A stretch of 64,000 nucleotides of DNA from a virus. Taxonomy: Duplodnaviria; Caudoviricetes. The notes below the pieces were generated by a model. The model searched no databases. It was not told the DNA's origin and saw nothing but the letters and a program-made list of their open reading frames with translations. Below, in pieces: positions 16,386-43,274 of the stretch. Position numbers and translations under genes: made by a program. Location: the IMG/VR virus record IMGVR_UViG_3300025383_000009. One strand, 5' to 3'. Numbering within the stretch: position 1 is the first letter of the stretch; each line of letters opens with the position of its first letter.

Positions 16386-16871
16386 TTACTCCTCATTGAT
16401 TACAAATACTGCAACACCAGCTTCAGCAAACATTGCTATGGACTTTTTCCATGAATCGTTCCAATGTGGCCTAGCTTCGATGCACTGTTTTGATACTACT
16501 ACTTTCTTAATCCCTACTTGGATGATACCCTTTGCACACTCTGAGCATGCTGGTAAACCATGAATGAATATGGTTGAACCGTCTAATGATACGCCTGAGT
16601 ATGTAGCATTATATATTGCATTCATCTCAGCATGTACAATTAATGATAGCTTTAGTTCTCTATCACTTAATCTTTTATTTGAATCAGCTATACCTCTTGG
16701 AAAACCATTATAGCCTTGAGATAAGATCTGACCCTTTGATCCAACTACCACTGCACCAACTTGTGTGTTAGGGTCTTTTGACCATGTAGCTACTTCTTTT
16801 GCAAGCTTGAGGTATCGCTTATACCATTTATTGATCGCCATCGATGAACTTAAAATGCCTTTCATAAACAT
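16386..16871 (-). CDS. cd: dCMP deaminase
   Basis: WSKDPNTQVGA, GYNGFPRG, HAEMNA, PACSEC zinc motif. Confidence 0.95.
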   Translation of the reverse strand: MFMKGILSSSMAINKWYKRYLKLAKEVATWSKDPNTQVGAVVVGSKGQILSQGYNGFPRGIADSNKRLSDRELKLSLIVHAEMNAIYNATYSGVSLDGSTIFIHGLPACSECAKGIIQVGIKKVVVSKQCIEARPHWNDSWKKSIAMFAEAGVAVFVINEE

Positions 16872-17511
16872 GAAGAGATGCTACGTTCCAATAGATATCA
16901 CCAATTTCAAGTGTTTCTAACCATTCGTTTCTTAAGTCTATTACTAGCTGTTCCAATACATGTTTTTGCCATGCATAATCGTTCTTATAACCAAACACGG
17001 CATCATTTGATCTCATATAGACCAATGCGTTTACTTTATTGTTCCTGATAAGATACTGCACTGCATTAGTACACATAAAGTCTGACATACCACCTTTGTT
17101 ATAATCATCATGCATAGTAGGACGATTATAGATCATTGTAGCTCTACGAGATAGTGGGTTCTTTATGAGTTCATTAAGTACGTTCTCATATTGATCTCCA
17201 TTCTGTTGCGAATAGATGCACCACCCATAGTTTGAGTTGATATATCCATTAGGGTTTGCAACCATTTTCCAGATTTCTGGTGGTCCACCTGGGATGTCAT
17301 TAACGTTAAGTGACATTGACTTATACCATTCTAATTCTCTTTCTACATAGTCATGATTGACTGTACCAAAGATTGATGGTTCATTAGCAAAGAATGCTGC
17401 GTTTATGATCTCAACTGTCTTGACACCAGTCTTATCAGTAACGAAGTCGCCCATCTTTAACTTCTCTTTAAAGATGTTTCTGATATTACTTACACCATAG
17501 ACTGTACTCAT
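16828..17511 (-). CDS. gp42: dCMP hydroxymethylase (T4 gp42-like)
   Basis: Long blocks match T4 gp42: DKTGVKT, RELEWYKS, INSNYGW, GMSDFMCTN.VQYLIR, MRSND.VFG.KNDYAWQK, SLHVY. Asp of NDY marks dCMP specificity. Confidence 0.93.
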   Translation of the reverse strand: MSTVYGVSNIRNIFKEKLKMGDFVTDKTGVKTVEIINAAFFANEPSIFGTVNHDYVERELEWYKSMSLNVNDIPGGPPEIWKMVANPNGYINSNYGWCIYSQQNGDQYENVLNELIKNPLSRRATMIYNRPTMHDDYNKGGMSDFMCTNAVQYLIRNNKVNALVYMRSNDAVFGYKNDYAWQKHVLEQLVIDLRNEWLETLEIGDIYWNVASLHVYERHFKFIDGDQ

Positions 17512-17904: not shown

Positions 17905-18312
17905 TTATTTTTTAACCCAACCTCTACCATTCCAATCATAGATCCCATTCAATTCATAGTCATCTGATTCTTTGTCATTGATCCATATATAGACACGAGT
18001 AGGATGCGTCCTCCATGACTCTTGTATACGTTCTGCACACCTATCTAATATGTATGGTACATTGCCTATATGTTGTGTAACTTTAACCTCAATAGGCGTA
18101 TCATCGGGTTCAAATAGATCTTTATATGGTCTAGTATCATCGATGTATCCTATCGATAGTAGGTATACCTCTGCTGCTTGACCGTATAAGCATGCTTCAA
18201 GGATCTGTTGGTAGTTTCTACCAGTCTTGTCTTTAACAACTATCTTACTAGCCTCTGCCTCAGCTCGAGCTAATAATAATTGCTGGTCTAGTTTTGATCT
18301 ATTAAATTTCAA
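17905..18312 (-). CDS. Hypothetical protein, possible PD-(D/E)XK nuclease
   Basis: GQAAE...KDLFEPDDTPIEVK pattern. Confidence 0.5.
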   Translation of the reverse strand: MKFNRSKLDQQLLLARAEAEASKIVVKDKTGRNYQQILEACLYGQAAEVYLLSIGYIDDTRPYKDLFEPDDTPIEVKVTQHIGNVPYILDRCAERIQESWRTHPTRVYIWINDKESDDYELNGIYDWNGRGWVKK

Positions 18313-18710
18313 TCGTAGATCTTTTCAAATAATCCGATGTTACCAACATGAGTAGGTGCAACCCAGCCTTCAGGCTTAATAAGATCCGGTAAACCTAGTG
18401 GGTTTGGTCTTGATGCTTTAATACCGACCTCCTTAGTAATATTTGCTGTATACACTTTATCCCATGCCATATTAGCATGTACATCAAATAAATCCAATGT
18501 GCCTATAGCAAACACAGATAAGTCGATCAATGCATCCACCGCATCATCACCGTTCTTTGCTGCTTTAAGTTCATCAAGTTCTTCTTGTAAACACTTGATG
18601 CGGAACTCAAGGAACTCTGCTAACTTATTAGCATCCATCTTTTGCACTACTTCTTTTACACCAAACTTATGGTGCATCTCACTCATATCTTTTGCCCAGT
18701 TGTAACTCAT
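18309..18710 (-). CDS. MazG-like/all-alpha NTP pyrophosphohydrolase (candidate dCTPase/dUTPase)
   Basis: LQEELDEL...DAVDALIDL acidic motif; DLIKPEGW. Confidence 0.85.
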   Translation of the reverse strand: MSYNWAKDMSEMHHKFGVKEVVQKMDANKLAEFLEFRIKCLQEELDELKAAKNGDDAVDALIDLSVFAIGTLDLFDVHANMAWDKVYTANITKEVGIKASRPNPLGLPDLIKPEGWVAPTHVGNIGLFEKIYD

Positions 18711-25967: not shown

Positions 25968-26738
25968 TTATACCTCCACATATTTTAATTTAAAAGAACC
26001 GTGCTGATTTTCTCGTGGATATCCACGAGGGTTACACACAACACGGGTTATTCCAATTGTATAATCAAACTCATCATGTGTATGACCATGTACCCATAGT
26101 TTAATATTATCGCTAAGCTCCATCATGTAATCAAGCTTATTATGAAATGCGCCATTCATAAGAGTTTCATGCTTATACTTAGGATGACAACTATTTTCAG
26201 ATGGACTATGATGCGTTATCACTACACAATCTTTAGAGTTGCTCAATGCGTGTTTAATATACTCGAGACTCTTTTTGTTTTCTTTTGTGGATTGCTCAGG
26301 TGTATACTTATAATAGTTTACACCATCAAAGTACTTGACAATCCTAAAATCAGGCATTGAAAATAAAGCAGCGTTCATCGTCATAGGATCTTCATTATTC
26401 ATGTCTGTCCATAGAGTAGAGCCAATAAATGTCTTGTCTTCTAACTCAAACGTTTCATTATCTAATACATGGATGTTCTCCCATGTTGATAATGTTTCCT
26501 TTAGATCGTTTACTGTATCATTAAACATATAGTTATAATGCTCATGGTTACCCACCACATACAGCACATGTTTAAACTGCTCAGAGCAATTCTTAAAAAA
26601 ATCTAAGTATTGATATTTTTGAAGATGCTTAACTACGCATATATCACCTGCAAGGATAAGCACATCAGCGTTCTCAGTATTATTTAATGTAATAGCTTCA
26701 AACTCCAAGTGTAGATCTGATGCGATTGCTAGTTTCAT
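25968..26738 (-). CDS. Calcineurin-like metallophosphoesterase
   Basis: SDLHLE, LAGDI, VGNHE, ITHHSP, HGHTH. Confidence 0.93.
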   Translation of the reverse strand: MKLAIASDLHLEFEAITLNNTENADVLILAGDICVVKHLQKYQYLDFFKNCSEQFKHVLYVVGNHEHYNYMFNDTVNDLKETLSTWENIHVLDNETFELEDKTFIGSTLWTDMNNEDPMTMNAALFSMPDFRIVKYFDGVNYYKYTPEQSTKENKKSLEYIKHALSNSKDCVVITHHSPSENSCHPKYKHETLMNGAFHNKLDYMMELSDNIKLWVHGHTHDEFDYTIGITRVVCNPRGYPRENQHGSFKLKYVEV

Positions 26739-27684: not shown

Positions 27685-27744
27685 ATTATACCAAATTAGC
27701 TAATTAATGTACATAATTAAATATGTATATAAATCAATAACTTA
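27685..27744 (-). promoter_or_regulatory. Early promoter TGTACA-N17-TATAAT plus upstream IHF-consensus box
   Basis: -10 at 27685-27690, -35 at 27708-27713; AATCAATAACTTA at 27732-27744. Confidence 0.7.
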
Positions 27745-28797
27745 TGAAAAGAATGATTCTAGGCCTCCGGGGGCGGACTTGGGTGTGTTCCAATACGAAC
27801 CAGTCCAATATGGGTATGATGCCCGTGATAGATGGACTGACTTTGGCTTCTCCATGTATTCGAAGTCAAGCTCACCCTTAGAGTTAATCATGTTGTCTAC
27901 CCATAAGTATACCGGGAACTTGTCTTGAGACATGATCTCTTCTTTGAATATCTGACGAAGGTTGTCACGTTCCTTCTGTGTTCCGGTAAATGGTACACCT
28001 TTATAGTAACCAGTCTTTGGTAATACTCGTGACTCGTTCTCAATAGGTAATAGTTCCCACATAGTCACCTCCGCATCATACATATCTGAGATACGTTGAC
28101 ACTCTTGGATATACTTTGCTGCGAGTTCTTTAGTTGACTGAACCGGATCCGGAAACCTCATGAGATGGTGGCGGATATCGATGTTACCAAAGTAAACTTC
28201 TATTTCGTTATATTTTCCTTCTGGTATGAATGTGTCAAAGCCTTGCTTGATTGCACCATGTAGTGTCTTAAATGGTGTAGACACGTTCATCCATTCTGGT
28301 CGATACATACAAATAGCATGAGAATCCCCAATAGCAATCTTTGGATATCTCTTAGCAAGGTTAGGATCATAAGTGATAGCACGATCTTGTAGATCTTTGA
28401 GGTTGCCCCAATTTACATCATGCCATAAACGATTTATCTTCTTACCATCTTTGATTGCTTTCTCTACACGCGGATACAACATACCATAGTAATCAGGCAT
28501 ATCGATCACTAATGACCATACTGCACCTCTAAAGTTTGATAGCGCGATGATGTACTCGATGTTCGAATAGTTCTCCAACCCACCGAATAAGTTGAGTGAT
28601 CCACCCCAGTCGTTACCATGATAGAGAGCAACCGTATCATATGCATTGTAATCATGTATCTGGTTACCTGTCATGTGTACAGTTACATCCATACCTGCAG
28701 TCATTAGTTGATCTGCATAGATGATACCTTGCGCAGCTTTGTGTGAATGGATCTTGTTAGAAACCGGCGAGAGTGGCTGTGTTAGTAGTAACTTCAT
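27742..28797 (-). CDS. Two-domain protein: beta-glucosyltransferase-like N-terminus plus SGNH/GDSL-like C-terminus
   Basis: YDTVALYHG...SLNLFGG resembles T4 Bgt YDRLIVVNSSINFFGG; IGDSH, FGNID and SVHL resemble SGNH blocks. Start revised to MKLLLTQ. Confidence 0.5.
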   Translation of the reverse strand: MKLLLTQPLSPVSNKIHSHKAAQGIIYADQLMTAGMDVTVHMTGNQIHDYNAYDTVALYHGNDWGGSLNLFGGLENYSNIEYIIALSNFRGAVWSLVIDMPDYYGMLYPRVEKAIKDGKKINRLWHDVNWGNLKDLQDRAITYDPNLAKRYPKIAIGDSHAICMYRPEWMNVSTPFKTLHGAIKQGFDTFIPEGKYNEIEVYFGNIDIRHHLMRFPDPVQSTKELAAKYIQECQRISDMYDAEVTMWELLPIENESRVLPKTGYYKGVPFTGTQKERDNLRQIFKEEIMSQDKFPVYLWVDNMINSKGELDFEYMEKPKSVHLSRASYPYWTGSYWNTPKSAPGGLESFFS

Positions 28798-29656
28798 CTT
28801 TTTTCCATTTTCTATATGAATTTGTTGTGTCAATAATACTATGATCTTTTAATATTGGGTCTGTGCCAACGTTCCACATCAATATATCTCTACCCGTATT
28901 TTTAGGTATGTACTTCCAAACCTTTGCATCGTATGTACGTACTGTTGGGAATGGTGGTAAGTTCTCGTATTTTTCTGGTGTTGCAAACTCTGCAGGTTCT
29001 GATATAAACTCTGCGCGACCTAACTCACCTTCTTGTAAGTTACGGGCTACTGCAACTGAATGGAACTTGGCATTTGGCCATGCTATCTGTAATGCTCGTG
29101 ATAGTACACCAGTACTTATAGCTACATAAACTTCTTCAGGTTCTTTGATCTTACTTGCAGCGTATACGATACCTGCTGTTGCTAGTTCATGCTTCAAACC
29201 AAGTGGGATGAATGCATAACCGTTTTCTTCCGCGTATTTTTTAGCAGCGAGGTTTAGGTTAGGCATCGCTGCTATCCGTTCAAAGTGTACCTCTGCTCCA
29301 CGTTCAATACAACATGCCTGATGATGTGATATCTGCTTGGATGATGGCATGAATAGTACAATCTTTTTACCATGTATCTTTGCTACATCACATAGAGACA
29401 CACCAGCAAGCCCGACTCTTGGCTGTACATAAACTAATGTATCGTTTGGGATCTTGGCTGCAAGCAGATCACCAGCTCTTGTCTTTGTACCAACGATGAG
29501 ATCATCTCGAACAACTCGTACACCTTCATGCATCACTGTAACAGGATCCGGATTGTACGGTGTCCATCCTTCACATAGAGATAGGTAATACTCTTTGGCT
29601 TGTGGCCATGTCATCATACCTACTTCTTTGTTTATACCCTCAACGAACGTTCTCAT
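28757..29656 (-). CDS. PLP-dependent enzyme, fold type II (ACC deaminase/Trp synthase beta-like)
   Basis: VVRDDL..GTKTR (PLP lysine), VAISTGVLS phosphate loop, YDAK, WNVG. Confidence 0.8.
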   Translation of the reverse strand: MRTFVEGINKEVGMMTWPQAKEYYLSLCEGWTPYNPDPVTVMHEGVRVVRDDLIVGTKTRAGDLLAAKIPNDTLVYVQPRVGLAGVSLCDVAKIHGKKIVLFMPSSKQISHHQACCIERGAEVHFERIAAMPNLNLAAKKYAEENGYAFIPLGLKHELATAGIVYAASKIKEPEEVYVAISTGVLSRALQIAWPNAKFHSVAVARNLQEGELGRAEFISEPAEFATPEKYENLPPFPTVRTYDAKVWKYIPKNTGRDILMWNVGTDPILKDHSIIDTTNSYRKWKKDEVTTNTATLAGF

Positions 29657-29763
29657 ACTTTCCTCAATTTACAATTATCAAAATGCCATCTTTTCATAGC
29701 AGGTAAACTACCATTTAAACCACAATGGGGGCATACTATGGTTTGTTGAGCTCCTGTAGGCAT
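29653..29763 (-). pseudogene. 36-aa mini-ORF equal to a homing-endonuclease C-terminal motif
   Basis: MPTGAQQTIVCPHCGLNGSLPAMKRWHFDNCKLRKV*; its TGA overlaps the PLP gene ATG. Confidence 0.7.
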
Positions 29764-29767
29764 CCAT

Positions 29768-30784
29768 TCATGCTGGGAAGACTTTTTTTCCGTCTGGTCG
29801 TTTGGCCAAATCAAAACTATTAGGAAATATCCAATTATATGGTATACGCTTGGTAGGAGATTTTACTCCATGATTGATAGCAATGTGTTTCCAAAATAGA
29901 CATGACTTGTCTTCTATGTTCAACCATTTTTGCTCTCTCATAGGATTGCGAGGATCATTTACTAATATATTCATTTGCTCAAGCCACATGTGTGCATGCT
30001 TGTTCTTAGGTACGAACTGACCATCTGGATCTATCTCATATTGTACCTTACCATTGAGGTTTACACCAAAGATCTGATGCATGCCATCAAAGTGTCCTGT
30101 ACCACCAAACAATACTGACTCAGGATCTACGATATCAGGATATGCCATAGCCATGTATCGTGCAGTGTTCTTGCATGGATACAGTGGACTTCTAAAGTTT
30201 TGTTTCTCTTTGAAATACTTCTCAAGTAGTTTAGCATACTCCATCATGGTGAATGGTCGTCCTAACCTATTACGATGTTTATCTAAAAACTCCCACATCT
30301 CCTCAGCTGCCTTCTTAGGACCATCGATCAGCCAATCTTTAACTAACGTGTTCTTAGGATAGTAGATTTGGAATAGATCATTACGTGCATGTCGGTGTTC
30401 TTTAAAGTGTTCTCTTAGATTCTCTGGACCTTGATACATCAACCGTGTTAGTGTACCCCAATGTTCGTTACTAAATGAGAACGTTAGTGTATACCACAAT
30501 CTTAACTTAGGATCTGTGACCTTCTTCATGATATCACAGAACGGATGTTCATGCCAATGGAGTCTATGCGAAAAGATCTGGTAATCTTCTGCTAACAACT
30601 GATCTCGACGTAGATCAAACTCTTGGCAAAACTCAAAAAACTTATCAAGACGTTTTTCAAGTGGCCAATCTTTCATCCATGATTCAGTAGGTTTGCCATC
30701 TTTTAATACTACAGGACTTGTACCCTTATAGGTAATATTCTTATACTCGATACCAGATATGAATTGAGCTAGAGTGTTTTGCAT
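29768..30784 (-). CDS. Amino acid:DNA transferase / aGPT-Pplase-like protein, paralog 2
   Basis: GGTGHFDGM and NIEDKSCLFWKH parallel the GPGAxxGL and ExxLCExxKY family motifs. Confidence 0.6.
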   Translation of the reverse strand: MQNTLAQFISGIEYKNITYKGTSPVVLKDGKPTESWMKDWPLEKRLDKFFEFCQEFDLRRDQLLAEDYQIFSHRLHWHEHPFCDIMKKVTDPKLRLWYTLTFSFSNEHWGTLTRLMYQGPENLREHFKEHRHARNDLFQIYYPKNTLVKDWLIDGPKKAAEEMWEFLDKHRNRLGRPFTMMEYAKLLEKYFKEKQNFRSPLYPCKNTARYMAMAYPDIVDPESVLFGGTGHFDGMHQIFGVNLNGKVQYEIDPDGQFVPKNKHAHMWLEQMNILVNDPRNPMREQKWLNIEDKSCLFWKHIAINHGVKSPTKRIPYNWIFPNSFDLAKRPDGKKVFPA

Positions 30785-31935
30785 AGTTCCTTATATTGAT
30801 CCACTGTCATATTATGTATCTTCAAGACATAATCGTCTGAAGGATGAGATGTTAATCTATTGAATGAATCTATTAGTTTAAGATCAAGCATTGCTTTCTG
30901 TCTACCGAATGGATGATCTAAGATCTTACATGATGAGAATATAACATCACGATCTATATGGTTATAGTCTGATCCAGGTCGTACATAGTTTTCTACCCAA
31001 CGGATGAAGTCACAGCACACGTCTTCTGCATTATATGGGTATGCACCAGTCTCTACATAGATCCGTTCCATAACTTGATCGAGGAACTCTTCTTGCTTCA
31101 TCTTAGTTAATGGTTTTGCAAGATATGAGATACACTCTACTGCATTTGTACCGTAGTAGAACGGTGATGTCTTATCAACGTACTGTGGGTACCAATCAGC
31201 CACGTCTGCAACTACTGCAGCATACTGGAAGTGGTACTGTCTTAAGTTATTCTTAACGTTCCAATCTAACATGAACGAACCGATCTCTCTTAGTGATCTC
31301 TGTCCACCAGATTCTAAAAACTCTGCTAGTTCTCTTGCTAATCGTGGTGCATACTCTGATAGGTAATAATCTCCACCACGTTTATATCTTGATCCTGCAG
31401 GTGGTTTAGGAAATGCTGGGAATTGGTATCCAACAGAAGTGTAGAAGGAGTATGGATAGTTGTTCACCATCTCGACCATGTCCTCAATAGTCTTACAGTT
31501 ATGTAGCGAGAACAATAAGGTATTGTGGTATCCACTAGGTTTCGTACTGTAATTAATTGCAGAACCACATACACGATGGAGGATGAATATGTACAGCCAT
31601 TCGGGCAGTTTAAAGTCGGAATGTTTTCCTGTCCAGTTATGTGCTACAGTATCTCGTTGATGTGTGATCTTACCTGCTTCCATCTTTTTCCAATATGGAT
31701 GCTGATCCGTCCAACCATAAAAGCAATCATTAACGATCTGAGAGAAACCTGCATACTTACGTTCGACCACATCATACAATTCTACATGATGCAGTAGATC
31801 ATCATTCATGTTTGACTCTACATGTGATATCATGCCATAAGGTGGTGTAAGAGATACATTACACTTCTCTTGCTGATCCTTTGCAAGGTTAAAGTATCTT
31901 ATGTACTCATCATAGTATTGTGTTGTTTCAATCAA
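30769..31935 (-). CDS. Amino acid:DNA transferase / aGPT-Pplase-like protein, paralog 1
   Basis: FQYAAVVAD, YYGTNAVEC, NAEDVCCDFIRW; FILHR. Confidence 0.65.
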   Translation of the reverse strand: MIETTQYYDEYIRYFNLAKDQQEKCNVSLTPPYGMISHVESNMNDDLLHHVELYDVVERKYAGFSQIVNDCFYGWTDQHPYWKKMEAGKITHQRDTVAHNWTGKHSDFKLPEWLYIFILHRVCGSAINYSTKPSGYHNTLLFSLHNCKTIEDMVEMVNNYPYSFYTSVGYQFPAFPKPPAGSRYKRGGDYYLSEYAPRLARELAEFLESGGQRSLREIGSFMLDWNVKNNLRQYHFQYAAVVADVADWYPQYVDKTSPFYYGTNAVECISYLAKPLTKMKQEEFLDQVMERIYVETGAYPYNAEDVCCDFIRWVENYVRPGSDYNHIDRDVIFSSCKILDHPFGRQKAMLDLKLIDSFNRLTSHPSDDYVLKIHNMTVDQYKELCKTL

Positions 31936-32345
31936 TATAAACCAACCTCAGTTAAAAATGTTTGTAGTCTAAGCAGCATACCAACTTCATAGGCTTTACT
32001 ATTTAGGTTCCTATTTCGTGGAGACGGATGATCAATCTTATAATGTGGTATGTCATACTTATCACATACTTTTGATACAAATCCACCAAGTGCAATCACT
32101 ACTTTACCTTGTGTCTCTGTTAGTAATGCATCCACGTCTACATCAGACATCTTATAAGAGTTTATCTTATTAGGTATCACATTATGAAACGACCATTCAT
32201 ATAGACCTACTGTGTCCATCCAATCCTTCAGACGTGCAAATGTCCCATTCTTAAACGGTGTAGTTTTAGATGAGGGACATTGGCCTAAGACTATAACTTC
32301 GTCAGAAGGCCTATGATATGGAAGAAAATCCGTCACTGATTTCAT
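31932..32345 (-). CDS. Minimal uracil-DNA glycosylase-superfamily protein
   Basis: VLGQCPS, SFHNVI, VIALG, DHPSPRNR. Start revised to MKSVTDF, downstream of the promoter. Confidence 0.75.
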   Translation of the reverse strand: MKSVTDFLPYHRPSDEVIVLGQCPSSKTTPFKNGTFARLKDWMDTVGLYEWSFHNVIPNKINSYKMSDVDVDALLTETQGKVVIALGGFVSKVCDKYDIPHYKIDHPSPRNRNLNSKAYEVGMLLRLQTFLTEVGLY

Positions 32346-32351
32346 AATATA

Positions 32352-32380
32352 ATTATACCCCAAAGGGTATTAAAAGTACA
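32352..32380 (-). promoter_or_regulatory. Early promoter TGTACT-N17-TATAAT heading the modification cluster
   Basis: 17-bp spacer variant of the consensus. Confidence 0.65.
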
Positions 32381-32381
32381 A

Positions 32382-32696
32382 TTAAGCTTTAAATTGGGCG
32401 TCGTTTGCACCAGCTAATACGATACCAGAACCGTAGATCCTGTTATATTCGTTTAGTAGTTCTTTCTTAACGTCAGTAATTGCTGCGATAGATGTATGAT
32501 ACACTGCAATAGTGCCATCATGGTAAGGCATAAAAGGAGAGAATCCGACGGATACTGTACCTTCTTTTGTTTGGTGATATACTAATGTGACACCATTTTC
32601 AATGACCATTGCACCTTCTCCTGAAGATATAAGGCCACAAATGATCTCTTCACCACTAGTAAATTTAATTAGTTTAATATCTGCCATCTTGCTCAT
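32382..32696 (-). CDS. Sm-like conserved T4-like protein
   Basis: IKLIKFTSGEEII...GFSPFMPY. Confidence 0.65.
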   Translation of the reverse strand: MSKMADIKLIKFTSGEEIICGLISSGEGAMVIENGVTLVYHQTKEGTVSVGFSPFMPYHDGTIAVYHTSIAAITDVKKELLNEYNRIYGSGIVLAGANDAQFKA

Positions 32697-32934: not shown

Positions 32935-33486
32935 TTAACTATCCATATCGTACTGTTGACCAGAGGCGTAATTAGCATCTTTAGCGTAGTCAGTTGGGTT
33001 ATCTCTTTCATTTAAGAGTTCTCTAACACGGTCGATACCAGTAGACGGCGTTAAGTTGTCCGTGATCTCGATTTGACGAGGTTTCTTAGATTCAGGGATA
33101 ACATTCTCAAGAGCGATACGTAAGATGCCATCTTTAAATTCAGCACCACGCACTTCGACCGTATCAGCCAACTTGATTGACTTAGTGAACGAACGCGTTC
33201 CGATACCTTTGTGGAGGTATTGTACATTGCCATCATCAGGATTCTTTTGTCCTTTGATGATCAATAAGCCTTCTTCTAAAGTGATAGTTACCTCTTGCTT
33301 ATTGAAACCAGCGATAGCCAATTCAACGATATATTCGTAATCGTCTAGCTTAATAATGTTGTGAGGTGGGAATGCTTGGTTGTTGTTTAGTGGTGCTGCG
33401 AGCATCTCATCAATCTCTCTTAGCATACTTTCAAAACCAATAGTTTGTGGCCAGATAGGGCCGAATGATACATTTGTAGTTCGCAT
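32935..33486 (-). CDS. hsp20: Small heat-shock protein (IbpA/Hsp20)
   Basis: FPPHNII, VELAIAGF, YLHKGIGTRSF, AEFKDGIL. Confidence 0.95.
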   Translation of the reverse strand: MRTTNVSFGPIWPQTIGFESMLREIDEMLAAPLNNNQAFPPHNIIKLDDYEYIVELAIAGFNKQEVTITLEEGLLIIKGQKNPDDGNVQYLHKGIGTRSFTKSIKLADTVEVRGAEFKDGILRIALENVIPESKKPRQIEITDNLTPSTGIDRVRELLNERDNPTDYAKDANYASGQQYDMDS

Positions 33487-34748: not shown

Positions 34749-34777
34749 ATTGTACCATATTTATTAATTATTGTACA
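34749..34777 (-). promoter_or_regulatory. Early promoter TGTACA-N17-TACAAT
   Basis: Preceded by GGGCCTA like other copies; upstream of the secreted protein and rpsU. Confidence 0.65.
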
Positions 34778-35159
34778 TAGGCCCAATTGTAACAATTTGT
34801 AACCACTTTTTAGATCTATTCTTATGCCATGCCTTAATAGATTCAGACATTTTTCTTTTTTGTTCATCTGACATTACAAATGACTTTTTACCTTTAGTTG
34901 CTAAACTCATTTTGCGCTTAGTTTCTTCAGATCTAGGAACTCCTGCTAAACCGCCTTTAGTTCCTTTTTTGCTTCTACTTATCTTTTTCTTAGATTCTTC
35001 AGTATGTTTTTTACCATACCAGTGGCTTTCTTCTTTTGGAAGACCTTTATTCCATGAATCTTCTATTATAATTTCAGAGTTAGCTTCTAGTTCTTCTTTA
35101 GTTATAATCATAGTTTTAAGGGAATTAAACTCTTCTGGAACCGGGGATAAATATGACAT
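34764..35159 (-). mobile_element. NUMOD3-repeat protein lacking a recognisable nuclease domain (homing-endonuclease derivative)
   Basis: YGKKHTEESKKKIS and RSEETKRKMS repeats; AGGAG RBS supports start MSYLSP at 35159. Confidence 0.7.
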
Positions 35160-35226
35160 GCTGGCACTCCTTTTAGTGTTAGAGTCCTTGGAGATTGCCG
35201 TCTCGCGAAGGACATTTTTCATATTA

Positions 35227-39490: not shown

Positions 39491-39826
39491 TTATGGCTTT
39501 AGGCCATACTCCTTGATCACGTTATTTAATAATGGTGAGAACTTAGATAAGTCAATCACCGCTTCTACATTTCCACTGAGGTAATCCTCCATCTCCGATT
39601 CAGTGGGGACCGGAAATCCATAAACACTTTTCAACTTCTTATTCTCTGCTACTATAAGCCAATTAGGATAGCCTAACTTGGGACATCCATCTTCTCTGGC
39701 ATCGACCATAATCTTATGATAGTCTTTTATCTGAGTAAGATCTATAGTCTCATCAGAGTGATTGAAGCGATTCATCACCTCAATCACGTACATCTTTTGT
39801 GTTGGCTTTAGTTCTTTAAATTGCAT
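39491..39826 (-). CDS. Hypothetical protein
   Basis: Coupled to the AAA gene. Confidence 0.6.
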   Translation of the reverse strand: MQFKELKPTQKMYVIEVMNRFNHSDETIDLTQIKDYHKIMVDAREDGCPKLGYPNWLIVAENKKLKSVYGFPVPTESEMEDYLSGNVEAVIDLSKFSPLLNNVIKEYGLKP

Positions 39827-41042
39827 CGTTTGTAACCGTAGTTGTTACTGTTTGGCTAGCTGTAGCTGCATTATAAGCATCTGATATAGTTGCATAAGCT
39901 GCAGCATCACTACTATTCACTGGATCATGTAACACTTCTGGTGCTGGGTTTGATATCTTATCAAATACATCCATGAATGCAGCTTTAGTTTGTGGATCGA
40001 AACGGTTACAACATAACTCGATCGCTTTCTCTTTCTTTTTGAAGATTGAGAATGCTCGTACGATATGAGTCATACGACGGGTTGTGATGGTCTCGTCTAC
40101 ACCACCGTCTTCGAATGTGCGACGGATAGCATCAGCCCATTTAATCAATGTGTCTGCAAAGTCTTGGTCCTCACAGTTATAATGCTTCATAAGGTTCTTA
40201 ACGATCTTCATCTCGACTGATGCATTAGGATACTCTTGTTCGAATGTCACTGCGAAACGCTCGAGGAATGCTTCGTTAAGTACGTTTGTGCCGATGTATC
40301 GGCCATCGTCTGAACCTTTACCCTTTGTGTTAGCTGTAGCAATGATGTTAAAGCCAGCAGCTGGAACTATAACCTCGTTCTTAAGCTTGAAGTAGTAAGG
40401 CTTGCCTTCGAGGATAGGCTGTAAACACAATAGTGTGTTAGCTGAACCAGCATCCACTTCGTCAAGCAATAATGTATAACCGTTACGTAGAGCAATCAAT
40501 ACTGGGCCTTCCACGATCTCCACGTTACCATTAATAAGTGTCTTAGCACCAATAAGTTGCTCTTCGTCAGACATCATGTTAAGGTTAACACGAATAAGTG
40601 GCTTACCAAATTTAGCGCAGATCTGCTCGATCATGGTTGACTTACCGTTACCCGTAGGGCCGGAAATATAAGATGGATAGAAAAGTCCAGCTTTGATGAT
40701 CATCTCGAGATCTGAATAGTTGCCAAATGGTACATAGTTTGGGTCCTTGGCTGGGATTAATGTCTCAGGTCTATCGAAGTTTACGATGGCTTGGCTTTCA
40801 ATTTTTACTGGGGTTTGAACCACTGAAAGCACTGGCTTTGGAATTACTGAAGGCACCTTCACGTTATAAACACCACGTGACACCTGACCAGCAATCATGA
40901 ACCAAGGCATAGTATCATAACCTAATGAATTTACCACTGTCATAAGATCGGTCTTACTGATCTCAGGGGTTTTAACTAGACCTGGATAGGTCTCGAATAG
41001 TTTAGCTTGAACTTCAAGCTTTTGTTCACTTTTATATCTCAT
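39816..41042 (-). CDS. CobS/MoxR-like AAA+ ATPase
   Basis: GPTGNGKS, LLLDEVD, ATANTKG.G, NEAFLERF. Confidence 0.92.
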   Translation of the reverse strand: MRYKSEQKLEVQAKLFETYPGLVKTPEISKTDLMTVVNSLGYDTMPWFMIAGQVSRGVYNVKVPSVIPKPVLSVVQTPVKIESQAIVNFDRPETLIPAKDPNYVPFGNYSDLEMIIKAGLFYPSYISGPTGNGKSTMIEQICAKFGKPLIRVNLNMMSDEEQLIGAKTLINGNVEIVEGPVLIALRNGYTLLLDEVDAGSANTLLCLQPILEGKPYYFKLKNEVIVPAAGFNIIATANTKGKGSDDGRYIGTNVLNEAFLERFAVTFEQEYPNASVEMKIVKNLMKHYNCEDQDFADTLIKWADAIRRTFEDGGVDETITTRRMTHIVRAFSIFKKKEKAIELCCNRFDPQTKAAFMDVFDKISNPAPEVLHDPVNSSDAAAYATISDAYNAATASQTVTTTVTNDAI

Positions 41043-41162: not shown

Positions 41163-43274
41163 TTATGCCACCAGCCCTATAAACTGATTAAGCAATATGC
41201 GACTGGTCTTCTTATTTGAGAGCATCTTGGTGAGCTCCCGGGCGATCCTGGATGCGCTTTCCTTTTTACCTATAGAAAGCTCTTTGTCATCCTCAATCTT
41301 AGCTCTGGATTCAGCCACTATGAAGAGCTCGTCCCGACCTGTATCCTTCATTGATGCAAAGCCATTCTTACGAAGATCTCTCTTCATGTCTTCGATACCC
41401 ATAGCTGAGATGTGTGAGCCATGACCATAATGAGCTACGAATGCATTGTGTAGATATCTGAACGTTGGTCGTGTGATGTAAAATCCTACAGTAGTGATAG
41501 CATGTCTATCCTTAATCATCTGTAAGAGTGACTTAGTTTGCTCTGCGTTCTCTGACATTGGATAGTTCTTACGAGTTACTGTATCAGATAAGAACGGCTT
41601 GACAGTAACATAGTCTTTGCCATTATAGTTTCGTTTCATCCTGATCTGATCAAATCCAGTTCTTAAGTACTCGCCTTCACCGTCAGTCAATGTGATGAGC
41701 GTCATCTTTTCTGTACCGTTCTTACTCTTAAATTCTGGGATGTAGTTGTATAACCATGCTAACGCAGAATTCAATGGAGTACCAGATGTTTTAAAGTTGT
41801 GAAGGTTATAGAATAACCTTGATAAAGTGATGGTGATCATCTTATTAAATTCTGATTGAGTCATCTTAGATGAGAATAACTCCATCATAGTAAGACCAAA
41901 CGTGTCAACTTCAGATTCACCTGCTGTCATCATACGGGTACCATCAGCGTTTCTGTACTTAGTATCAGACCAACCGTTTGTGAATGCAAATACTTGGAAT
42001 GGGATCTGAGCACCTCTACAAAACATTGCTAATGATACGACTTGCTCGATCGTTGGTCTTAACACATGATCCATTGAAGCTGACCAATCCAATAAGAATA
42101 TCATACCATGACTTTTACCGTTAGGGATAGACATCACTTGTTTGAATATGTCATCGTTTAGTTTATAAGCATAAAGCTTTTTACCATCCAATGAACCAGT
42201 CTTTGCGACCTTAGCACGTTTATAGTTTTGTGCTGACTTACGCATCTCGAATTCTTTTACTAAGTAGCTAACTACGTTCTTAGATGATGCTTTAAACTTC
42301 TCAGCGCGTTCTACGTCATCATCATTAATTACTGAAGCACCGCTAGCATTCCATTCTGCTTCATATTCTGCATGCTCTGCAAATACTTCTTTATAGGTAA
42401 CCATTGGATTGACCTTAAATTGTTTAGGGATAGTGATGTACTTGTATTCGATTGAAGTATCAGCTAATTCTTGAAGCTTCTTATCTAAGTTCTTTTCAGT
42501 TTGTGACTCTAACTGATCTTCGAGTGAGTCTTCAAGGTCTTGAAGCGGATCCGTTTTGGTTGATGGTGATGATTGCTCGTCTTCGATCTGATCAGTCTCT
42601 TCCTCATCTGCATCAAAGTCTTGCATCTGTGAATTACCTTGCTCTTCAGACTCTTCTTCTTCAAATTCTTCGTGATCGTCTGACAATGCTTTCATCTGTT
42701 CGATCTTGTCTTCCATAGCTTTCTTAGAATAGTCATAGATCTCTTTAGCTAACGCGATCACATCTTTACATGTCTCAGTCTCTTCAGCACGTCTTACGAA
42801 TGCTTTCTCTTCAGCATTAAAAGTAACACCGCATGAATAACCAGCTTTGAAATATAGGTTGATCTTATCGATGAGTAACATATCTTTGAAACCGTTAGCT
42901 ACACCAAAGAAGTCTCGATTATTAAGTTCTTTATAACCTAAGTTGAATGACTTACGAAGACCAGGATATCTGCGCTTCATAAGCTTCTCGATACGTACAT
43001 CCTCAAGCACGTTCATATAGCCTGAGAAGTGAGGGGTATCTTTATAAGGGTTTTTAGTTGAATACTCTTCAAGAGTAGTGTAAAGCGCGTGACCTACTTC
43101 ATGACCAACTAACATATCAATAAGATCGTTAGTCATGTCCTTCCATTGTGGAAGTCTTAGGACACGATTTTTGATGTCAAACGATGCTGTAGATACAGGT
43201 GCCTGTATAACAGTAAGGTTTTCGTTTGCTAATAATTTTGCTACTAAGTCAGTTTTTGTCATCAATCTCTCCAA
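41163..43274 (-). CDS. CobT-like protein: HExxH peptidase-like N-terminus and VWA domain
   Basis: HEVGH, NVLEDVRIE, LDWSASM MIDAS motif, GTPL, LTDGE. Confidence 0.85.
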   Translation of the reverse strand: MERLMTKTDLVAKLLANENLTVIQAPVSTASFDIKNRVLRLPQWKDMTNDLIDMLVGHEVGHALYTTLEEYSTKNPYKDTPHFSGYMNVLEDVRIEKLMKRRYPGLRKSFNLGYKELNNRDFFGVANGFKDMLLIDKINLYFKAGYSCGVTFNAEEKAFVRRAEETETCKDVIALAKEIYDYSKKAMEDKIEQMKALSDDHEEFEEEESEEQGNSQMQDFDADEEETDQIEDEQSSPSTKTDPLQDLEDSLEDQLESQTEKNLDKKLQELADTSIEYKYITIPKQFKVNPMVTYKEVFAEHAEYEAEWNASGASVINDDDVERAEKFKASSKNVVSYLVKEFEMRKSAQNYKRAKVAKTGSLDGKKLYAYKLNDDIFKQVMSIPNGKSHGMIFLLDWSASMDHVLRPTIEQVVSLAMFCRGAQIPFQVFAFTNGWSDTKYRNADGTRMMTAGESEVDTFGLTMMELFSSKMTQSEFNKMITITLSRLFYNLHNFKTSGTPLNSALAWLYNYIPEFKSKNGTEKMTLITLTDGEGEYLRTGFDQIRMKRNYNGKDYVTVKPFLSDTVTRKNYPMSENAEQTKSLLQMIKDRHAITTVGFYITRPTFRYLHNAFVAHYGHGSHISAMGIEDMKRDLRKNGFASMKDTGRDELFIVAESRAKIEDDKELSIGKKESASRIARELTKMLSNKKTSRILLNQFIGLVA

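What the first reader, a model, noticed from the sequence alone, without database searches (positions are those of the whole stretch)
27742..32380. Candidate undescribed cytosine hypermodification pathway
Seen: one early operon encodes a UDG-like protein, two tandem amino-acid:DNA-transferase/aGPT-Pplase-like paralogs, a fold-II PLP enzyme and a Bgt-like/SGNH hybrid. Known: transferase plus PLP-enzyme pairs hypermodify 5hmU-derived thymine in ViI- and M6-like phages and need a 5hmU DNA kinase. Here the base-making enzyme is a dCMP-specific gp42, and I see no such kinase in the window. No arabinose-supply genes are visible either. Inference: a different chemistry on hmC, such as amino-acid, amino-sugar or acylated adducts, possibly two sequential transfers.
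Basis: partly seen in the sequence, partly recalled or inferred. Interest (0 to 1): 0.86.

Follow-up and report, generated by a model that had tools for sequence, protein, structure and literature searches.

The report
Kinase-less hydroxymethylcytosine hypermodification gene cassette
A T4-like phage that makes hydroxymethylcytosine carries five genes related to the enzymes that decorate thymine in other phages, but an unusual glucosyltransferase-half/esterase chimera stands where the DNA kinase would be, so its DNA probably carries a cytosine modification that has not been described.

Summary
Five co-directional, partly overlapping minus-strand genes (27742-32345) encode the following:
- a UDG-superfamily protein;
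- two distant paralogs of the HhH-glycosylase-like aGPT-Pplase/AADT superfamily, both with the invariant Glu-x3-Cys catalytic motif;
- a fold-II PLP enzyme homologous to the phage M6 gp52 decarboxylase;
- a chimera of the T4 beta-glucosyltransferase N-terminal domain with an SGNH domain.

The genome's thymidylate-synthase homolog is a T4-type dCMP hydroxymethylase. No 5-hmU DNA kinase family member was found in the 160-kb genome.

New here:
- In 55 of 80 related viral contigs, gp42 lies in the same fetched locus just upstream of the cassette. At least 585 IMG/VR contigs carry it.
- The Bgt-N/SGNH protein is adjacent to the 388-aa transferase-like protein, or fused to it. This mirrors the kinase plus helical-domain pairs of thymidine systems.
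- Cultured Aeromonas T4-like phages carry such a fusion.

Best reading (about 0.5): post-replicative, non-sugar hypermodification of 5hmC by cysteine-dependent group transfer plus PLP tailoring. The chimera may activate the hydroxymethyl group in place of a kinase (about 0.3).

The chemistry and product are inferred, not shown. First-stage notes of this scan flagged similar cassettes in two other genomes. I found no paper describing this system.

The parts
31932..32345 (-). P5, a UDG-superfamily protein (137 aa from the ATG; SMUG1-like motifs GQCPS and HPSPRN). Optional member of the cassette.
   Evidence: Pfam UDG E=0.0015. Atlas neighbours carry PF03167, TM 0.79/0.89. The family profile's best PDB hit is SMUG1 1oe4 at E=0.065, with both motifs aligned. 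It is present in 39 of 80 related loci. The residue at the catalytic Asp/Asn position is Cys, Ser or Asn across the family.
30769..31935 (-). P4, a 388-aa member of the HhH-glycosylase-like aGPT-Pplase/AADT superfamily with invariant E304 and C308. Core member of the cassette.
   Evidence: AF2 pLDDT 94.9. Fold hits to HhH-GPD glycosylases and to AADT, Pplase1 and HMUDK helical-domain proteins. E304 and C308 are invariant in 51 of 51 sequences. hhalign against the M6 gp55 family gives E=6e-4 and aligns ExxxC. The search found 928 protein clusters and at least 585 IMG/VR contigs.
29768..30784 (-). P3, a 338-aa distant paralog of P4 with invariant E291 and C295. Optional member of the cassette.
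   Evidence: hhalign of A1 against A2 gives probability 90%, E=1.4e-6, with the ED..C motifs aligned. Atlas neighbours carry HMUDK_hel, ADDT and aGPT-Pplase3. Present in 60 of 80 loci.
28757..29656 (-). P2, a fold-type II PLP enzyme homologous to the M6 gp52 DNA-adduct decarboxylase. The putative Schiff-base lysine is K58.
   Evidence: phrog_7093 E=3e-37. hhalign against M6 gp52 gives probability 95%, E=2e-8 over 217 columns, and K58 is conserved in at least 95% of 59 sequences. A homolog next to a P1-P4 fusion carries Pfam PALP. Present in 70 of 80 loci.
27742..28797 (-). P1, a 351-aa chimera. Residues 1-113 are homologous to the T4 beta-glucosyltransferase N-terminal domain, and residues 145-332 form an SGNH-fold domain with invariant Ser, Gly, Asn and His. 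Core member of the cassette.
   Evidence: hhalign of A4 against the Bgt family gives probability 96%, E=4e-9. The Bgt profile hits only this gene in the whole genome. AF2 pLDDT 90.9. SGNH fold at Z 13.7. Invariant residues are S159, G181, N205 and H322. It is fused to a P4-like domain in 7 metagenomic proteins and present in 68 of 80 loci.
16828..17511 (-). gp42-type dCMP hydroxymethylase, which supplies the 5hmC substrate.
   Evidence: E=7e-85 to T4 gp42 (PDB 1b49), with the motif RSNDAVFGYKNDYAW. That keeps Asp at both the ThyA-D169 and ThyA-N177 equivalents.
16386..16871 (-). dCMP deaminase, part of the nucleotide-supply block that adjoins the cassette in relatives.
   Evidence: Pfam dCMP_cyt_deam_1 E=2e-21. 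In relatives it lies between gp42 and the cassette.
18309..18710 (-). MazG/PRA-PH-type pyrophosphohydrolase, a likely dCTPase analog and part of the supply block.
   Evidence: Pfam PRA-PH E=8e-6. The same family lies upstream of gp42 in 45 related loci.

Best explanation
The cassette is a post-replicative pathway that converts 5-hydroxymethylcytosine in phage DNA into a non-sugar hypermodified base.

Shown:
- The phage encodes a T4-type dCMP hydroxymethylase, a MazG-like pyrophosphatase and a dCMP deaminase.
- The cassette proteins are homologs of DNA-base-flipping or DNA-adduct enzymes: the Bgt N-domain, HhH/aGPT-Pplase, UDG and the M6 gp52 PLP decarboxylase.
- Across many phages the cassette lies just downstream of gp42.

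Inferred mechanism:
1. P1 docks on a flipped-out 5hmC with its Bgt-like acceptor domain. Its SGNH Ser-His site esterifies the hydroxymethyl oxygen, turning it into a leaving group. In thymidine systems the P-loop 5-hmU DNA kinase does this job.
2. P4 attacks C6 with Cys308, assisted by Glu304. This expels the leaving group and gives an exocyclic methylene, which captures an amine or hydroxyl nucleophile, most likely an amino acid. P3 probably does the same with a second nucleophile or in a second sequence context.
3. P2 (PLP, Lys58) decarboxylates or otherwise tailors the appended amino acid.
4. P5 is an accessory base-flipping protein. It may survey hmU or U in hmC DNA, or assist the transferases.

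My odds for the separate steps:
- The cassette acts on hmC in DNA: 0.75.
- AADT-like cysteine chemistry: 0.6.
- P2 acts as a decarboxylase: 0.5.
- P1 activates by acylation: 0.3.
For: - gp42 identity and diagnostic Asp residues.
- Synteny PRA-PH / DUF1599 / gp42 / dCMP deaminase / [UDG] / P4 / [P3] / P2 and P1 in 80 IMG/VR loci. gp42 is in 55 of them and is Asp/Asp in 51.
- P4 fold and superfamily.
- The Cys is invariant in P4 (51/51), P3 (36/36), the M6 gp51/ADDT family (22/22) and the gp55/HMUDK_hel family (19/19). The Glu four residues upstream is invariant in the first three and present in 15 of 19 in the last.
- In M6 gp51 and ViI gp247, mutating either this Cys or this Glu to alanine abolished activity (PMC8989533).
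- P2 is homologous to M6 gp52, which that paper lists as a PLP-dependent decarboxylase acting on DNA-bound glycine or serine adducts.
- P1 N-domain is homologous to the Bgt N-terminal domain, with D99 aligned to Bgt D100. That column is Asp in 25 and Glu in 4 of 36 sequences.
- SGNH fold with invariant catalytic residues.
- Rosetta-stone fusions of P1-like plus P4-like domains. Aeromonas phage 44RR2.8t ORF233c combines a P1-like domain with an HMUDK_hel-like domain, PF18723 E=8e-4.
- Minimal cassettes of gp42, deaminase, P4 and P1 exist (L077, L078, L083).
- No kinase, Bgt or carbamoyltransferase in the genome.
Against: - No chemical data exist for any member.
- P3 and P4 fail every Pfam model of the clan. 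The sequence link to the known families is weak: hhalign probability 28% to the gp55 family and none to the gp51 family.
- SGNH enzymes are usually hydrolases, and no acyl donor is evident.
- M6 gp55, the closest known relative of P4, was dispensable in the published reconstitution and has no known activity.
- D99 of P1 is not invariant.
- The complex prediction for P1 with P4 gave no verdict.
- In this phage the cassette lies about 10 kb from gp42.
Confidence: 0.5

Rival explanations
1. P1 alone makes the final or first stable modification, an O-acyl or O-aminoacyl ester of 5hmC (for example an acetoxymethyl- or aminoacyl-oxymethyl-cytosine). In this reading it is a functional analog of Bgt or of the hmC carbamoyltransferase. 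P4, P3 and P2 then tailor or rearrange that adduct rather than substituting it.
For: The Bgt acceptor domain is joined to an intact SGNH Ser-His site. The hydroxymethyl oxygen of hmC is the known target of Bgt and of the carbamoyltransferase described in PMC8670742. The P1 family is the largest of the five, with 1351 clusters.
Against: In the loci examined, P1 always lies next to P4 or is fused to it. Full-length relatives on short contigs were not checked for context. P4 keeps the Cys and Glu used for substitution chemistry. Esters at this activated position would be labile in virion DNA.
Confidence: 0.15
2. Activation is supplied in trans by an enzyme outside the cassette. Candidates are phosphorylation by an unrecognised kinase, or sulfation by the APS-kinase-like plus sulfotransferase pair 32 kb away. 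P1 would then be an esterase with an editing or maturation role.
For: An APS-kinase-like P-loop protein (E=1e-13) and a sulfotransferase (E=2e-19) are encoded side by side at G000:112716-114162. SGNH enzymes are typically hydrolases.
Against: Those genes sit among structural genes beside a GT2 glycosyltransferase, which is typical of surface-glycan genes. None of the ten best-conserved unlabelled plus-strand neighbour families of the 80 loci that I scanned is a kinase or sulfotransferase. The P1-P4 fusions argue that P1 acts on the same substrate as P4.
Confidence: 0.08
3. The cassette is DNA repair or anti-defence rather than modification. The UDG-like and HhH-like proteins would be glycosylases that remove U, hmU or unmodified C from phage or host DNA.
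For: The nearest solved folds are base-excision glycosylases: MjOgg 3knt at probability 0.97, MUTYH, and SMUG1.
Against: The Glu-x3-Cys motif that is invariant in P3 and P4 is the one shared with the aGPT-Pplase families, and it aligns with theirs. The cassette is obligately linked to a PLP enzyme of the gp52 type and to the Bgt-N/SGNH chimera. It occupies the slot next to gp42 where other hmC phages carry modification transferases.
Confidence: 0.08
4. The product is still a glycosylated hmC. P1 would be a divergent glycosyltransferase whose donor-binding half has been replaced, or would de-O-acetylate an acetylated sugar.
For: P1's N-domain is homologous to Bgt. In Aeromonas phage 44RR2.8t the fused homolog lies next to a gene annotated as a Na+/glucose-symporter-like protein. 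A GT2 gene exists elsewhere in the genome.
Against: The hhalign match stops at Bgt residue 114. The invariant Bgt residues of the second half (R191, R195, R269, E272) have no counterpart there; that these bind the sugar nucleotide is from my memory of the Bgt structures. No full Bgt is present. SGNH domains are not known to bind nucleotide sugars. This reading does not explain the AADT-like and PLP partners.
Confidence: 0.07
5. The enzymes act before replication on hm-dCMP or hm-dCTP in the nucleotide pool, so the modified nucleotide is incorporated by the polymerase.
For: The cassette is contiguous with nucleotide-pool genes in relatives. The hmC carbamoyltransferase also accepts 5hmdCTP.
Against: Four of the five folds belong to families that work on bases flipped out of DNA polymers. 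The homologous thymidine pathway is post-replicative (PMC8989533).
Confidence: 0.05

Closest known systems
Thymidine hypermodification clusters of phages M6, ViI, phiW-14 and SP10 (5-HMUDK kinase, aGPT-Pplase clades 1 and 2 including AADT, and a PLP decarboxylase; Lee et al., NAR 2022, PMC8989533)
   Same: Both have a paralogous pair of HhH-like aGPT-Pplase-superfamily proteins with the Glu-x3-Cys motif. Both have a gp52-type fold-II PLP enzyme. Both cluster with a thymidylate-synthase-family hydroxymethylase. In both, a helical aGPT-like domain is paired or fused with the presumed activating enzyme.
   Different: The base supplier here is a dCMP hydroxymethylase, not a dUMP one. No PF18748 or PF18723 kinase is present. 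A Bgt-N/SGNH chimera takes the kinase's place as the partner of the helical domain. P3 and P4 fall outside all three Pfam models. A UDG-like gene is often included.
T4 beta-glucosyltransferase (Bgt)
   Same: The N-terminal roughly 113 residues of P1 are homologous to Bgt's N-terminal domain, including the NFFGG-like loop and the column of Bgt D100. That this domain binds hmC DNA and that D100 is the catalytic base is from my memory of the Bgt structures. Both genes occur in hmC phages.
   Different: The second half of Bgt, where the UDP-glucose site lies, is replaced by an SGNH esterase/acyltransferase-fold domain. Glucosyl transfer is therefore not expected.
5hmC carbamoyltransferase pathway that makes 5-carbamoyloxymethylcytosine (Yang et al., eLife 2021, PMC8670742)
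   Same: It is a non-sugar modification of hmC. Its gene occupies the same kind of neighbourhood: thymidylate-synthase homolog, PRA-PH pyrophosphatase and dCMP deaminase.
   Different: It is a single enzyme of the unrelated TobZ-like carbamoyltransferase fold. None is present here.
TET/C5-methyltransferase phage contigs with a P-loop kinase plus aGPT-Pplase (Burke et al., PNAS 2021, PMC8256090)
   Same: That paper made the earlier prediction that aGPT-Pplase-type enzymes may also work on hmC in DNA.
   Different: There the hmC comes from TET oxidation of 5mC at GpC sites, and a P-loop kinase is present. The prediction was not tested. Here hmC comes from gp42 and no such kinase exists.
Aeromonas T4-like phages 44RR2.8t, 31, Aes012 and phiAS4; Stenotrophomonas phage IME13 (44RR ORF233c and homologs)
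   Same: These are cultured phages. In 44RR2.8t I confirmed a T4-type gp42 (59% identical, Asp kept) and no hit to the Bgt profile. Its ORF233c (795 aa) has a P1-like N-terminal half joined to a C-terminal part with a weak HMUDK_hel match.
   Different: tblastn found no P2-type PLP gene in any of these phage records. The C-terminal domain of ORF233c is not detectably related to the P4 profile. Their DNA modification is unreported in the papers I could search.

Membership tests
AADT / aGPT-Pplase clade 2 (Pfam ADDT PF18724) | Match to the family HMM above its curated cut-off | tested here: not met
   P3 and P4 give no hit even at E<=10. hhalign of either family against an M6 gp51-family alignment finds nothing. 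The same test also fails to link the known clades 1 and 2 (E=0.028), so its sensitivity is low.
AADT / aGPT-Pplase clade 2 (Pfam ADDT PF18724) | Essential cysteine with a glutamate four residues upstream | tested here: met
   P4 E304 and C308 are invariant in 51 of 51 sequences. P3 E291 and C295 are invariant in 36 of 36. The same spacing occurs in the M6 gp51 family, 22 of 22. Mutating either residue abolished activity in M6 gp51 and ViI gp247 (PMC8989533).
AADT / aGPT-Pplase clade 2 (Pfam ADDT PF18724) | Helix-hairpin-helix DNA-glycosylase-like fold | tested here: met
   The P4 model (pLDDT 94.9) hits MjOgg 3knt at probability 0.97, and 'Amino acid:DNA transferase' clusters at TM 0.62/0.65. 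It also hits Pplase1 proteins and the phiW-14, SP10 and phiRSL1 helical domains at probabilities 0.93-0.99. P3 was not modelled. It is linked through hhalign to P4 and through atlas features.
AADT / aGPT-Pplase clade 2 (Pfam ADDT PF18724) | Works with a 5-hmU DNA kinase on 5-phosphomethyl-dU | tested here: not met
   PF18748 and PF18723 are absent from the 160-kb genome, which is estimated 99% complete. The base supplier is dCMP-specific.
aGPT-Pplase clade 1 / HMUDK_hel (PF18723) | Match to the family HMM | tested here: inconclusive
   There is no hit in the genome, and only 1 of 51 P4 relatives hits, at E=0.01. hhalign against the M6 gp55 family gives E=6e-4 at probability 28% over 157 collinear columns including ExxxC, while controls give E 0.12-0.89.
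aGPT-Pplase clade 1 / HMUDK_hel (PF18723) | Encoded beside, or fused to, the enzyme that activates the hydroxymethyl group | tested here: inconclusive
   P4-like domains are fused to P1-like domains or encoded next to them. The arrangement is the same, but the partner is not a P-loop kinase and its activity is unknown.
T4 beta-glucosyltransferase (Pfam PF09198, GT-B) | N-terminal domain of Bgt | tested here: met
   hhalign of A4 against A5 gives probability 96%, E=4e-9, aligning residues 1-113 with Bgt 1-114. The reverse search with the Bgt profile hits only this gene in the genome, E=1e-4.
T4 beta-glucosyltransferase (Pfam PF09198, GT-B) | C-terminal UDP-glucose-binding Rossmann domain | tested here: not met
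   No alignment extends beyond Bgt residue 114. Residues 145-332 of P1 have the SGNH fold instead. The Pfam hit is E=0.046, below the cut-off.
SGNH/GDSL hydrolase superfamily | SGNH fold with the four block residues Ser, Gly, Asn and His | tested here: met
   VIA Z 13.7 and Foldseek E=1.7e-6 to PAF acetylhydrolase, GDSL esterases and PatB. S159 (in GDSH), G181, N205 and H322 are invariant in 36 of 36 sequences. No Pfam GDSL hit. The usual Asp three residues before the His is absent; E316 is invariant.
Uracil-DNA glycosylase superfamily (PF03167) | UDG fold with motif A (G-x-[DN]-P-x) and motif B (HPSP) | tested here: inconclusive
   The Pfam score is 19.1 bits against a cut-off of 24.3. Atlas structure neighbours are UDG clusters. 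Motif B, HPSPRN, is invariant. Motif A has Cys here and Ser or Asn in relatives at the position of the catalytic Asp/Asn, so glycosylase activity is doubtful.
M6 gp52 / ViI gp226-type PLP-dependent DNA-adduct decarboxylase (fold type II) | Full-length homology and a conserved PLP lysine | tested here: met
   hhalign gives probability 95%, E=2e-8 over 217 columns. K58 is conserved in at least 95% of 59 sequences and aligns with the Lys of gp52's SFSK. phrog_7093 E=3e-37. Decarboxylase activity itself is not testable here.
T4 gp42 dCMP hydroxymethylase | Asp at T4 position 179 (cytosine specificity) and Asp at the ThyA-D169 equivalent (Asn in 5-hydroxy-dCMP synthases) | tested here: met
   The motif is RSNDAVFGYKNDYAW. 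The D169N criterion is from PMC13326640. 51 of 55 cassette-linked homologs are Asp/Asp.

The most novel reading that the evidence does not exclude
A new way to activate a DNA base. A chimeric enzyme, made of the Bgt hmC-DNA-binding domain plus an SGNH acyl-transfer domain, esterifies 5hmC in duplex DNA. A cysteine-dependent aGPT-like transferase then swaps the ester for an amino acid, which a PLP enzyme decarboxylates. The result would be a previously unseen amino-alkyl cytosine that fully replaces C in a large, environmentally widespread clade of T4-like phages, and in simpler form in cultured Aeromonas phages.
Probability: 0.3. Interest if true: 0.9.

Novelty: new variant of a known kind. 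Interest (0 to 1): 0.8.

Why it matters
All characterised aGPT-Pplase/AADT pathways modify 5hmU and depend on a DNA-base kinase. Known hmC derivatives are sugars or a carbamate. This cassette would extend amino-acid-type hypermodification to cytosine and would do so without the kinase, which implies a new DNA-base-activating enzyme class.

It is not rare. The three larger families have about 390-1350 protein clusters each in public metagenomes, and at least 585 IMG/VR contigs carry the core gene.

New hypermodified cytosines affect restriction, CRISPR and type IV defence evasion. They also supply enzymes for DNA labelling and epigenetic sequencing.

The question can be tested now. Cultured Aeromonas T4-like phages carry the minimal fused version, and hmC DNA substrates such as T4gt DNA are standard.

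Tried and rejected
- Direct Pfam, NCBIfam and PHROG scans of P3 and P4 gave nothing.
- tblastn of P3 and P4 against 50,697 phage records found no match. Megablast of the region also found none.
- Scanning 51 P4 relatives against Pfam gave one HMUDK_hel hit at E=0.01.
- hhalign of the P4 profile against single sequences was uninformative: M6 gp51, M6 gp55 (E=0.007) and the 44RR ORF233c C-terminus. Family-to-family hhalign worked only for the gp55 type, and weakly.
- The P1 family profile against PDB sequences did not find Bgt. The link needed profile-profile comparison.
- The Walker-A search of the genome mostly found replication and packaging ATPases. Two NUMOD3 homing-endonuclease-like ORFs were false positives.
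- ORFs of about 150 aa between gp42 and P4 in loci without a UDG turned out, by their HAE/PCxxC zinc-binding motifs, to be dCMP deaminases and not divergent UDGs.
- The complex prediction of P4 with P1 gave no verdict. It is not evidence for or against binding.
- The promoter and terminator scan of the cassette was at chance level.
- Literature searches for SGNH plus hmC, for candidate product names, and for modification of Aeromonas T4-like phage DNA returned nothing. The library lacks most subscription journals.

Full report
**Setting.** The window is bases 48262-112261 of a 160,126-bp IMG/VR virus record estimated 99% complete. It is a T4-like myovirus. Its DNA polymerase is about 54% identical to those of cyanomyoviruses. 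The window also holds:
- gp41, uvsX and DNA ligase;
- gp44 and gp45, gp62 and regA;
- gp46, gp47 and gp55;
- terminase, gp15 and neck genes.

**The five genes.** On the minus strand, in order of transcription, lie five genes:

| Gene | Coordinates | Length |
|---|---|---|
| P5 | 32345-31932 | 137 aa from the ATG |
| P4 | 31935-30769 | 388 aa |
| P3 | 30784-29768 | 338 aa |
| P2 | 29656-28757 | 299 aa |
| P1 | 28797-27742 | 351 aa from the ATG that its homologs use |

P5/P4, P4/P3 and P2/P1 overlap by 4, 16 and 41 nt. An 111-nt gap separates P3 from P2. Whether this is an 'early' operon could not be tested, because consensus promoter and terminator hits are at chance level.

**The base supplier.**
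- The only thymidylate-synthase-family gene in the genome is at window 16828-17511.
- It matches T4 gp42 structures at E=7e-85 and keeps the Asp of T4 D179. A D179N mutant structure in the same hit list marks that position.
- It also keeps Asp at the equivalent of E. coli ThyA D169. That residue is Asn in the recently described 5-hydroxy-dCMP synthases of RB69-type phages (PMC13326640; motif). The enzyme is therefore predicted to make 5-hydroxymethyl-dCMP, not 5-hydroxy-dCMP or hm-dUMP.
- A dCMP deaminase (16386-16871) and a PRA-PH/MazG-type pyrophosphatase (18309-18710) flank it.

**P4 and P3.**
- Neither protein hits any Pfam, NCBIfam or PHROG model. The three clan models PF18723, PF18724 and PF18746 find nothing in the genome.
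- A language-model feature search places both next to viral clusters carrying HMUDK_hel, ADDT and aGPT-Pplase3.
- An AlphaFold2 model of P4, built on 51 diverse homologs, is very confident (pLDDT 94.9, pTM 0.93).
- Outside its own family, the model's neighbours are consistent:
  - HhH-GPD glycosylases, including MjOgg 3knt at probability 0.97 and MUTYH.
  - AFDB '5-hmdU DNA kinase helical domain', HhH-GPD and aGPT-Pplase clade 3 entries.
  - Atlas clusters named 'Amino acid:DNA transferase', or carrying HMUDK_hel/ADDT, at TM 0.62-0.73.
  - In BFVD, the helical-domain proteins of phiW-14, phiRSL1 and SP10 and 'Pplase1' proteins at probabilities 0.93-0.99. A 66%-identical uncultured-phage protein there is already auto-named 'Amino acid:DNA transferase domain-containing'.
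- P3 and P4 are related only at profile level: hhalign probability 90%, E=1.4e-6 over 132 columns.
- Both keep an invariant Glu-x3-Cys: P4 E304/C308 in 51 of 51 sequences and P3 E291/C295 in 36 of 36. The same motif with the same spacing is invariant in the M6 gp51 family (the biochemically proven glycine:DNA transferase). In the M6 gp55 family (HMUDK_hel) the Cys is invariant and the Glu is present in 15 of 19.
- Mutating either this Cys or this Glu to alanine abolished activity in M6 gp51 and ViI gp247 (PMC8989533).
- Family-to-family hhalign links P4 to the gp55 type at E=6e-4. The probability is only 28%, but the alignment is collinear and puts both motifs in register. Controls score E 0.12-0.89. 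The two established clades cannot be linked by this test at all.
- Conclusion: P3 and P4 belong to the aGPT-Pplase superfamily as a new, divergent clade or clades. They are not members of the defined Pfam families.

**P2.**
- It matches phrog_7093 'threonine dehydratase' at E=3e-37, the label that M6 gp52 carries.
- A 59-sequence family alignment matches M6 gp52 over essentially its whole length: probability 95%, E=2e-8. The conserved K58 aligns with the lysine of gp52's SFSK.
- PMC8989533 lists M6 gp52 and ViI gp226 as PLP-dependent decarboxylases that act on amino acids already attached to DNA.

**P1.**
- The AF2 model has pLDDT 90.9.
- Residues 145-332 form an SGNH-hydrolase fold: Foldseek E=1.7e-6, VIA Z 13.7 to PAF acetylhydrolase, GDSL esterases, carbohydrate esterases and the O-acetyltransferase PatB.
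- All four signature residues are invariant: S159 in GDSH, G181, N205 and H322.
- Residues 1-113 are homologous to the N-terminal domain of T4 beta-glucosyltransferase: profile-profile probability 96%, E=4e-9. The alignment starts at residue 1 and runs through the NLFGG/NFFGG loop.
- The alignment ends at D99, which pairs with Bgt D100. That column is Asp in 25 and Glu in 4 of 36 sequences. That D100 is Bgt's catalytic base is from my memory of the Bgt structures.
- The reverse search with a Bgt-family profile over all six frames of the genome hits only this stretch.
- Bgt's nucleotide-sugar-binding half has no counterpart in P1.
The Bgt part is the N-terminal half, which as I recall from the Bgt structures is the half that holds the flipped hmC.

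**P5.**
- It belongs to the UDG superfamily: Pfam E=0.0015, atlas structural neighbours with PF03167.
- The best PDB hit of the family profile is SMUG1, with both motifs aligned but at E=0.065.
- Motif B, HPSPRN, is invariant. The motif A position that carries the catalytic Asp or Asn in active families is Cys here and Ser or Asn in relatives. It may not be a hydrolytic glycosylase.

**Context across phages.**
- At least 585 IMG/VR contigs encode P4 relatives. I analysed the 80 best, which are 69-91% identical.
- P2 occurs in 70, P1 in 68, P3 in 60 and P5 in 39 of the 80. Most absences of P1 and P2 are at contig ends.
- gp42 lies in the same fetched locus as the cassette in 55 of the 80, at a median of about 1.4 kb upstream. 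In 51 of these it has Asp at both diagnostic positions.
- The usual order is PRA-PH pyrophosphatase, DUF1599 ('nucleotide modification associated domain 1'), gp42, dCMP deaminase, [UDG-like], P4, [P3], then P2 and P1 in either order, then uvsX or gp44/45.
- None of the ten best-conserved unlabelled plus-strand neighbour families that I scanned with Pfam is a kinase.
- Minimal versions consist of gp42, the deaminase, P4 and P1 only (L077, L078, L083). Versions without P3 still keep P2.
- This is the same neighbourhood in which other hmC phages carry the hmC carbamoyltransferase (PMC8670742).

**Fusions.**
- Among the 50%-identity representatives of the P4 family, seven proteins of 640-790 aa have a P1-like N-terminal part (E 1e-23 to 4e-46) joined to a P4-like C-terminal part.
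- One of these lies next to a P2-like PALP gene, E=8e-64.
- A distant, 36%-identical P4 homolog has a P1-like gene immediately upstream.
- In the cultured phage collection, P1 homologs occur in 43 records: T4-like Aeromonas phages (38 records, including 44RR2.8t, 31, Aes012 and phiAS4), Stenotrophomonas phage IME13 (2) and Tenacibaculum phages (3).
- In 44RR2.8t the homolog is the first 345 residues of the 795-aa ORF233c. Its C-terminal part gives a weak PF18723 HMUDK_hel match, E=8e-4.
- 44RR2.8t has a T4-type gp42 that is 59% identical and keeps the Asp. The Bgt profile finds nothing in its genome.
- In thymidine systems the helical aGPT-like domain is encoded beside the P-loop kinase, as in M6 gp54-gp55, or fused to it, as in the SP10 kinase and AAA_28+HMUDK_hel clusters.
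- The recurrent P1-P4 pairing therefore puts P1 in the position that the kinase occupies there.

**Mechanism.**
- Shown: the homologies, motif conservation, synteny and fusions above.
- Inferred:
  1. P1 binds flipped-out hmC and esterifies its hydroxymethyl oxygen, which creates a leaving group.
  2. P4, sometimes with P3, adds its cysteine at C6, expels that group and lets an amine or hydroxyl nucleophile add to the exocyclic methylene.
  3. P2 decarboxylates the appended amino acid.
  4. P5 is accessory.
- Cysteine attack at C6 of cytosine is established chemistry for C5-methyltransferases. The AADT mechanism is described in PMC8989533.
- The acyl donor, the nucleophile and the product are unknown.
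- Alternatives are given with odds under the rival explanations: an ester as the end product, activation in trans, a repair role, glycosylation, and nucleotide-level action.

**Novelty.**
- The ten papers in the searchable library that mention aGPT-Pplase describe thymidine systems, or in one case predict kinase-dependent action on TET-made hmC (PMC8256090).
- Searches for SGNH with hmC, for candidate product names and for Aeromonas phage DNA modification found nothing.
- First-stage notes of this scan flagged look-alike cassettes in two other genomes, one with a TagD-like cytidylyltransferase in the cassette. I did not check those.
- I rate it a new variant of a known kind of system. It has one component, the Bgt-N/SGNH chimera, that would be a new enzyme class if the proposed role holds.

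**Limits.**
- P3, P2 and P5 were not modelled by me.
- The N-domain of P1 could not be searched structurally on its own.
- The IMG/VR census used only the 80 closest loci.
- The complex prediction gave no verdict.

Noticed in passing
Just beyond the window's right end: G000:C1:112716-116000 (locus L008:1716-5394, minus strand): A run of accessory genes lies beside the neck and terminase genes. It holds an APS-kinase-like P-loop protein (134 aa, E=1e-13), a sulfotransferase (262 aa, E=2e-19), a GT2 glycosyltransferase, a CxxCxxCC protein and a DUF6445 protein. This is probably surface-glycan sulfation, but sulfation of hmC as an activation step cannot be excluded.
   Followed up: partly
window 29653-29814 (-): A 53-aa ORF in the P3-P2 gap, overlapping the end of P3, has a weak C2H2 zinc-finger hit and a weak homing-endonuclease hit (E about 5e-4). 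It may be a remnant of a mobile endonuclease that split the cassette.
   Followed up: no
window 34764-35222 (-); also G000:12793-13365 (+) and G000:125010-125690 (-): Three NUMOD3-motif ORFs, likely homing endonucleases, are scattered through the genome. Two of them carry a fortuitous Walker-A-like string.
   Followed up: partly
window 39816-41042 and 41163-43274 (-): An AAA ATPase matches a PHROG labelled 'porphyrin biosynthesis' (E=2e-100). Next to it is a 703-aa protein matching a PHROG labelled 'peptidase' (E=1e-177). Both lie between gp45 and gp46.
   Followed up: no
window 32935-33486 and 32382-32696 (-): An Hsp20 small heat-shock protein and a 104-aa phrog_527 protein lie directly upstream of the cassette. 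This pair stays next to P5 in the closest relatives, L019-L030.
   Followed up: partly
L002 (Erythrobacter phage vB_EliS_R6L, KY006853.1, gp1); also Microcystis phage Mae-JY30: A P2-like PLP-fold domain (34% identical, E=3e-32) is embedded in a large protein annotated 'DNA modification methylase'. A PAPS-reductase-like gene lies about 1.4 kb away. This suggests gp52-type PLP domains are used in other DNA-modification contexts.
   Followed up: no
L003 (Aeromonas phage 44RR2.8t) 4444-5967: The P1-like/HhH-like fusion gene ORF233c lies next to a gene annotated as a sodium/glucose-cotransporter-like protein, between motA and nrdC.10.
   Followed up: no
window 25968-26738 (-): A calcineurin-like metallophosphoesterase (256 aa, phrog_1649 E=5e-58) lies about 1 kb downstream of the cassette. 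It is distinct from gp47 at 45466-46539, and it is conserved downstream of the cassette in one close relative, L020.
   Followed up: no
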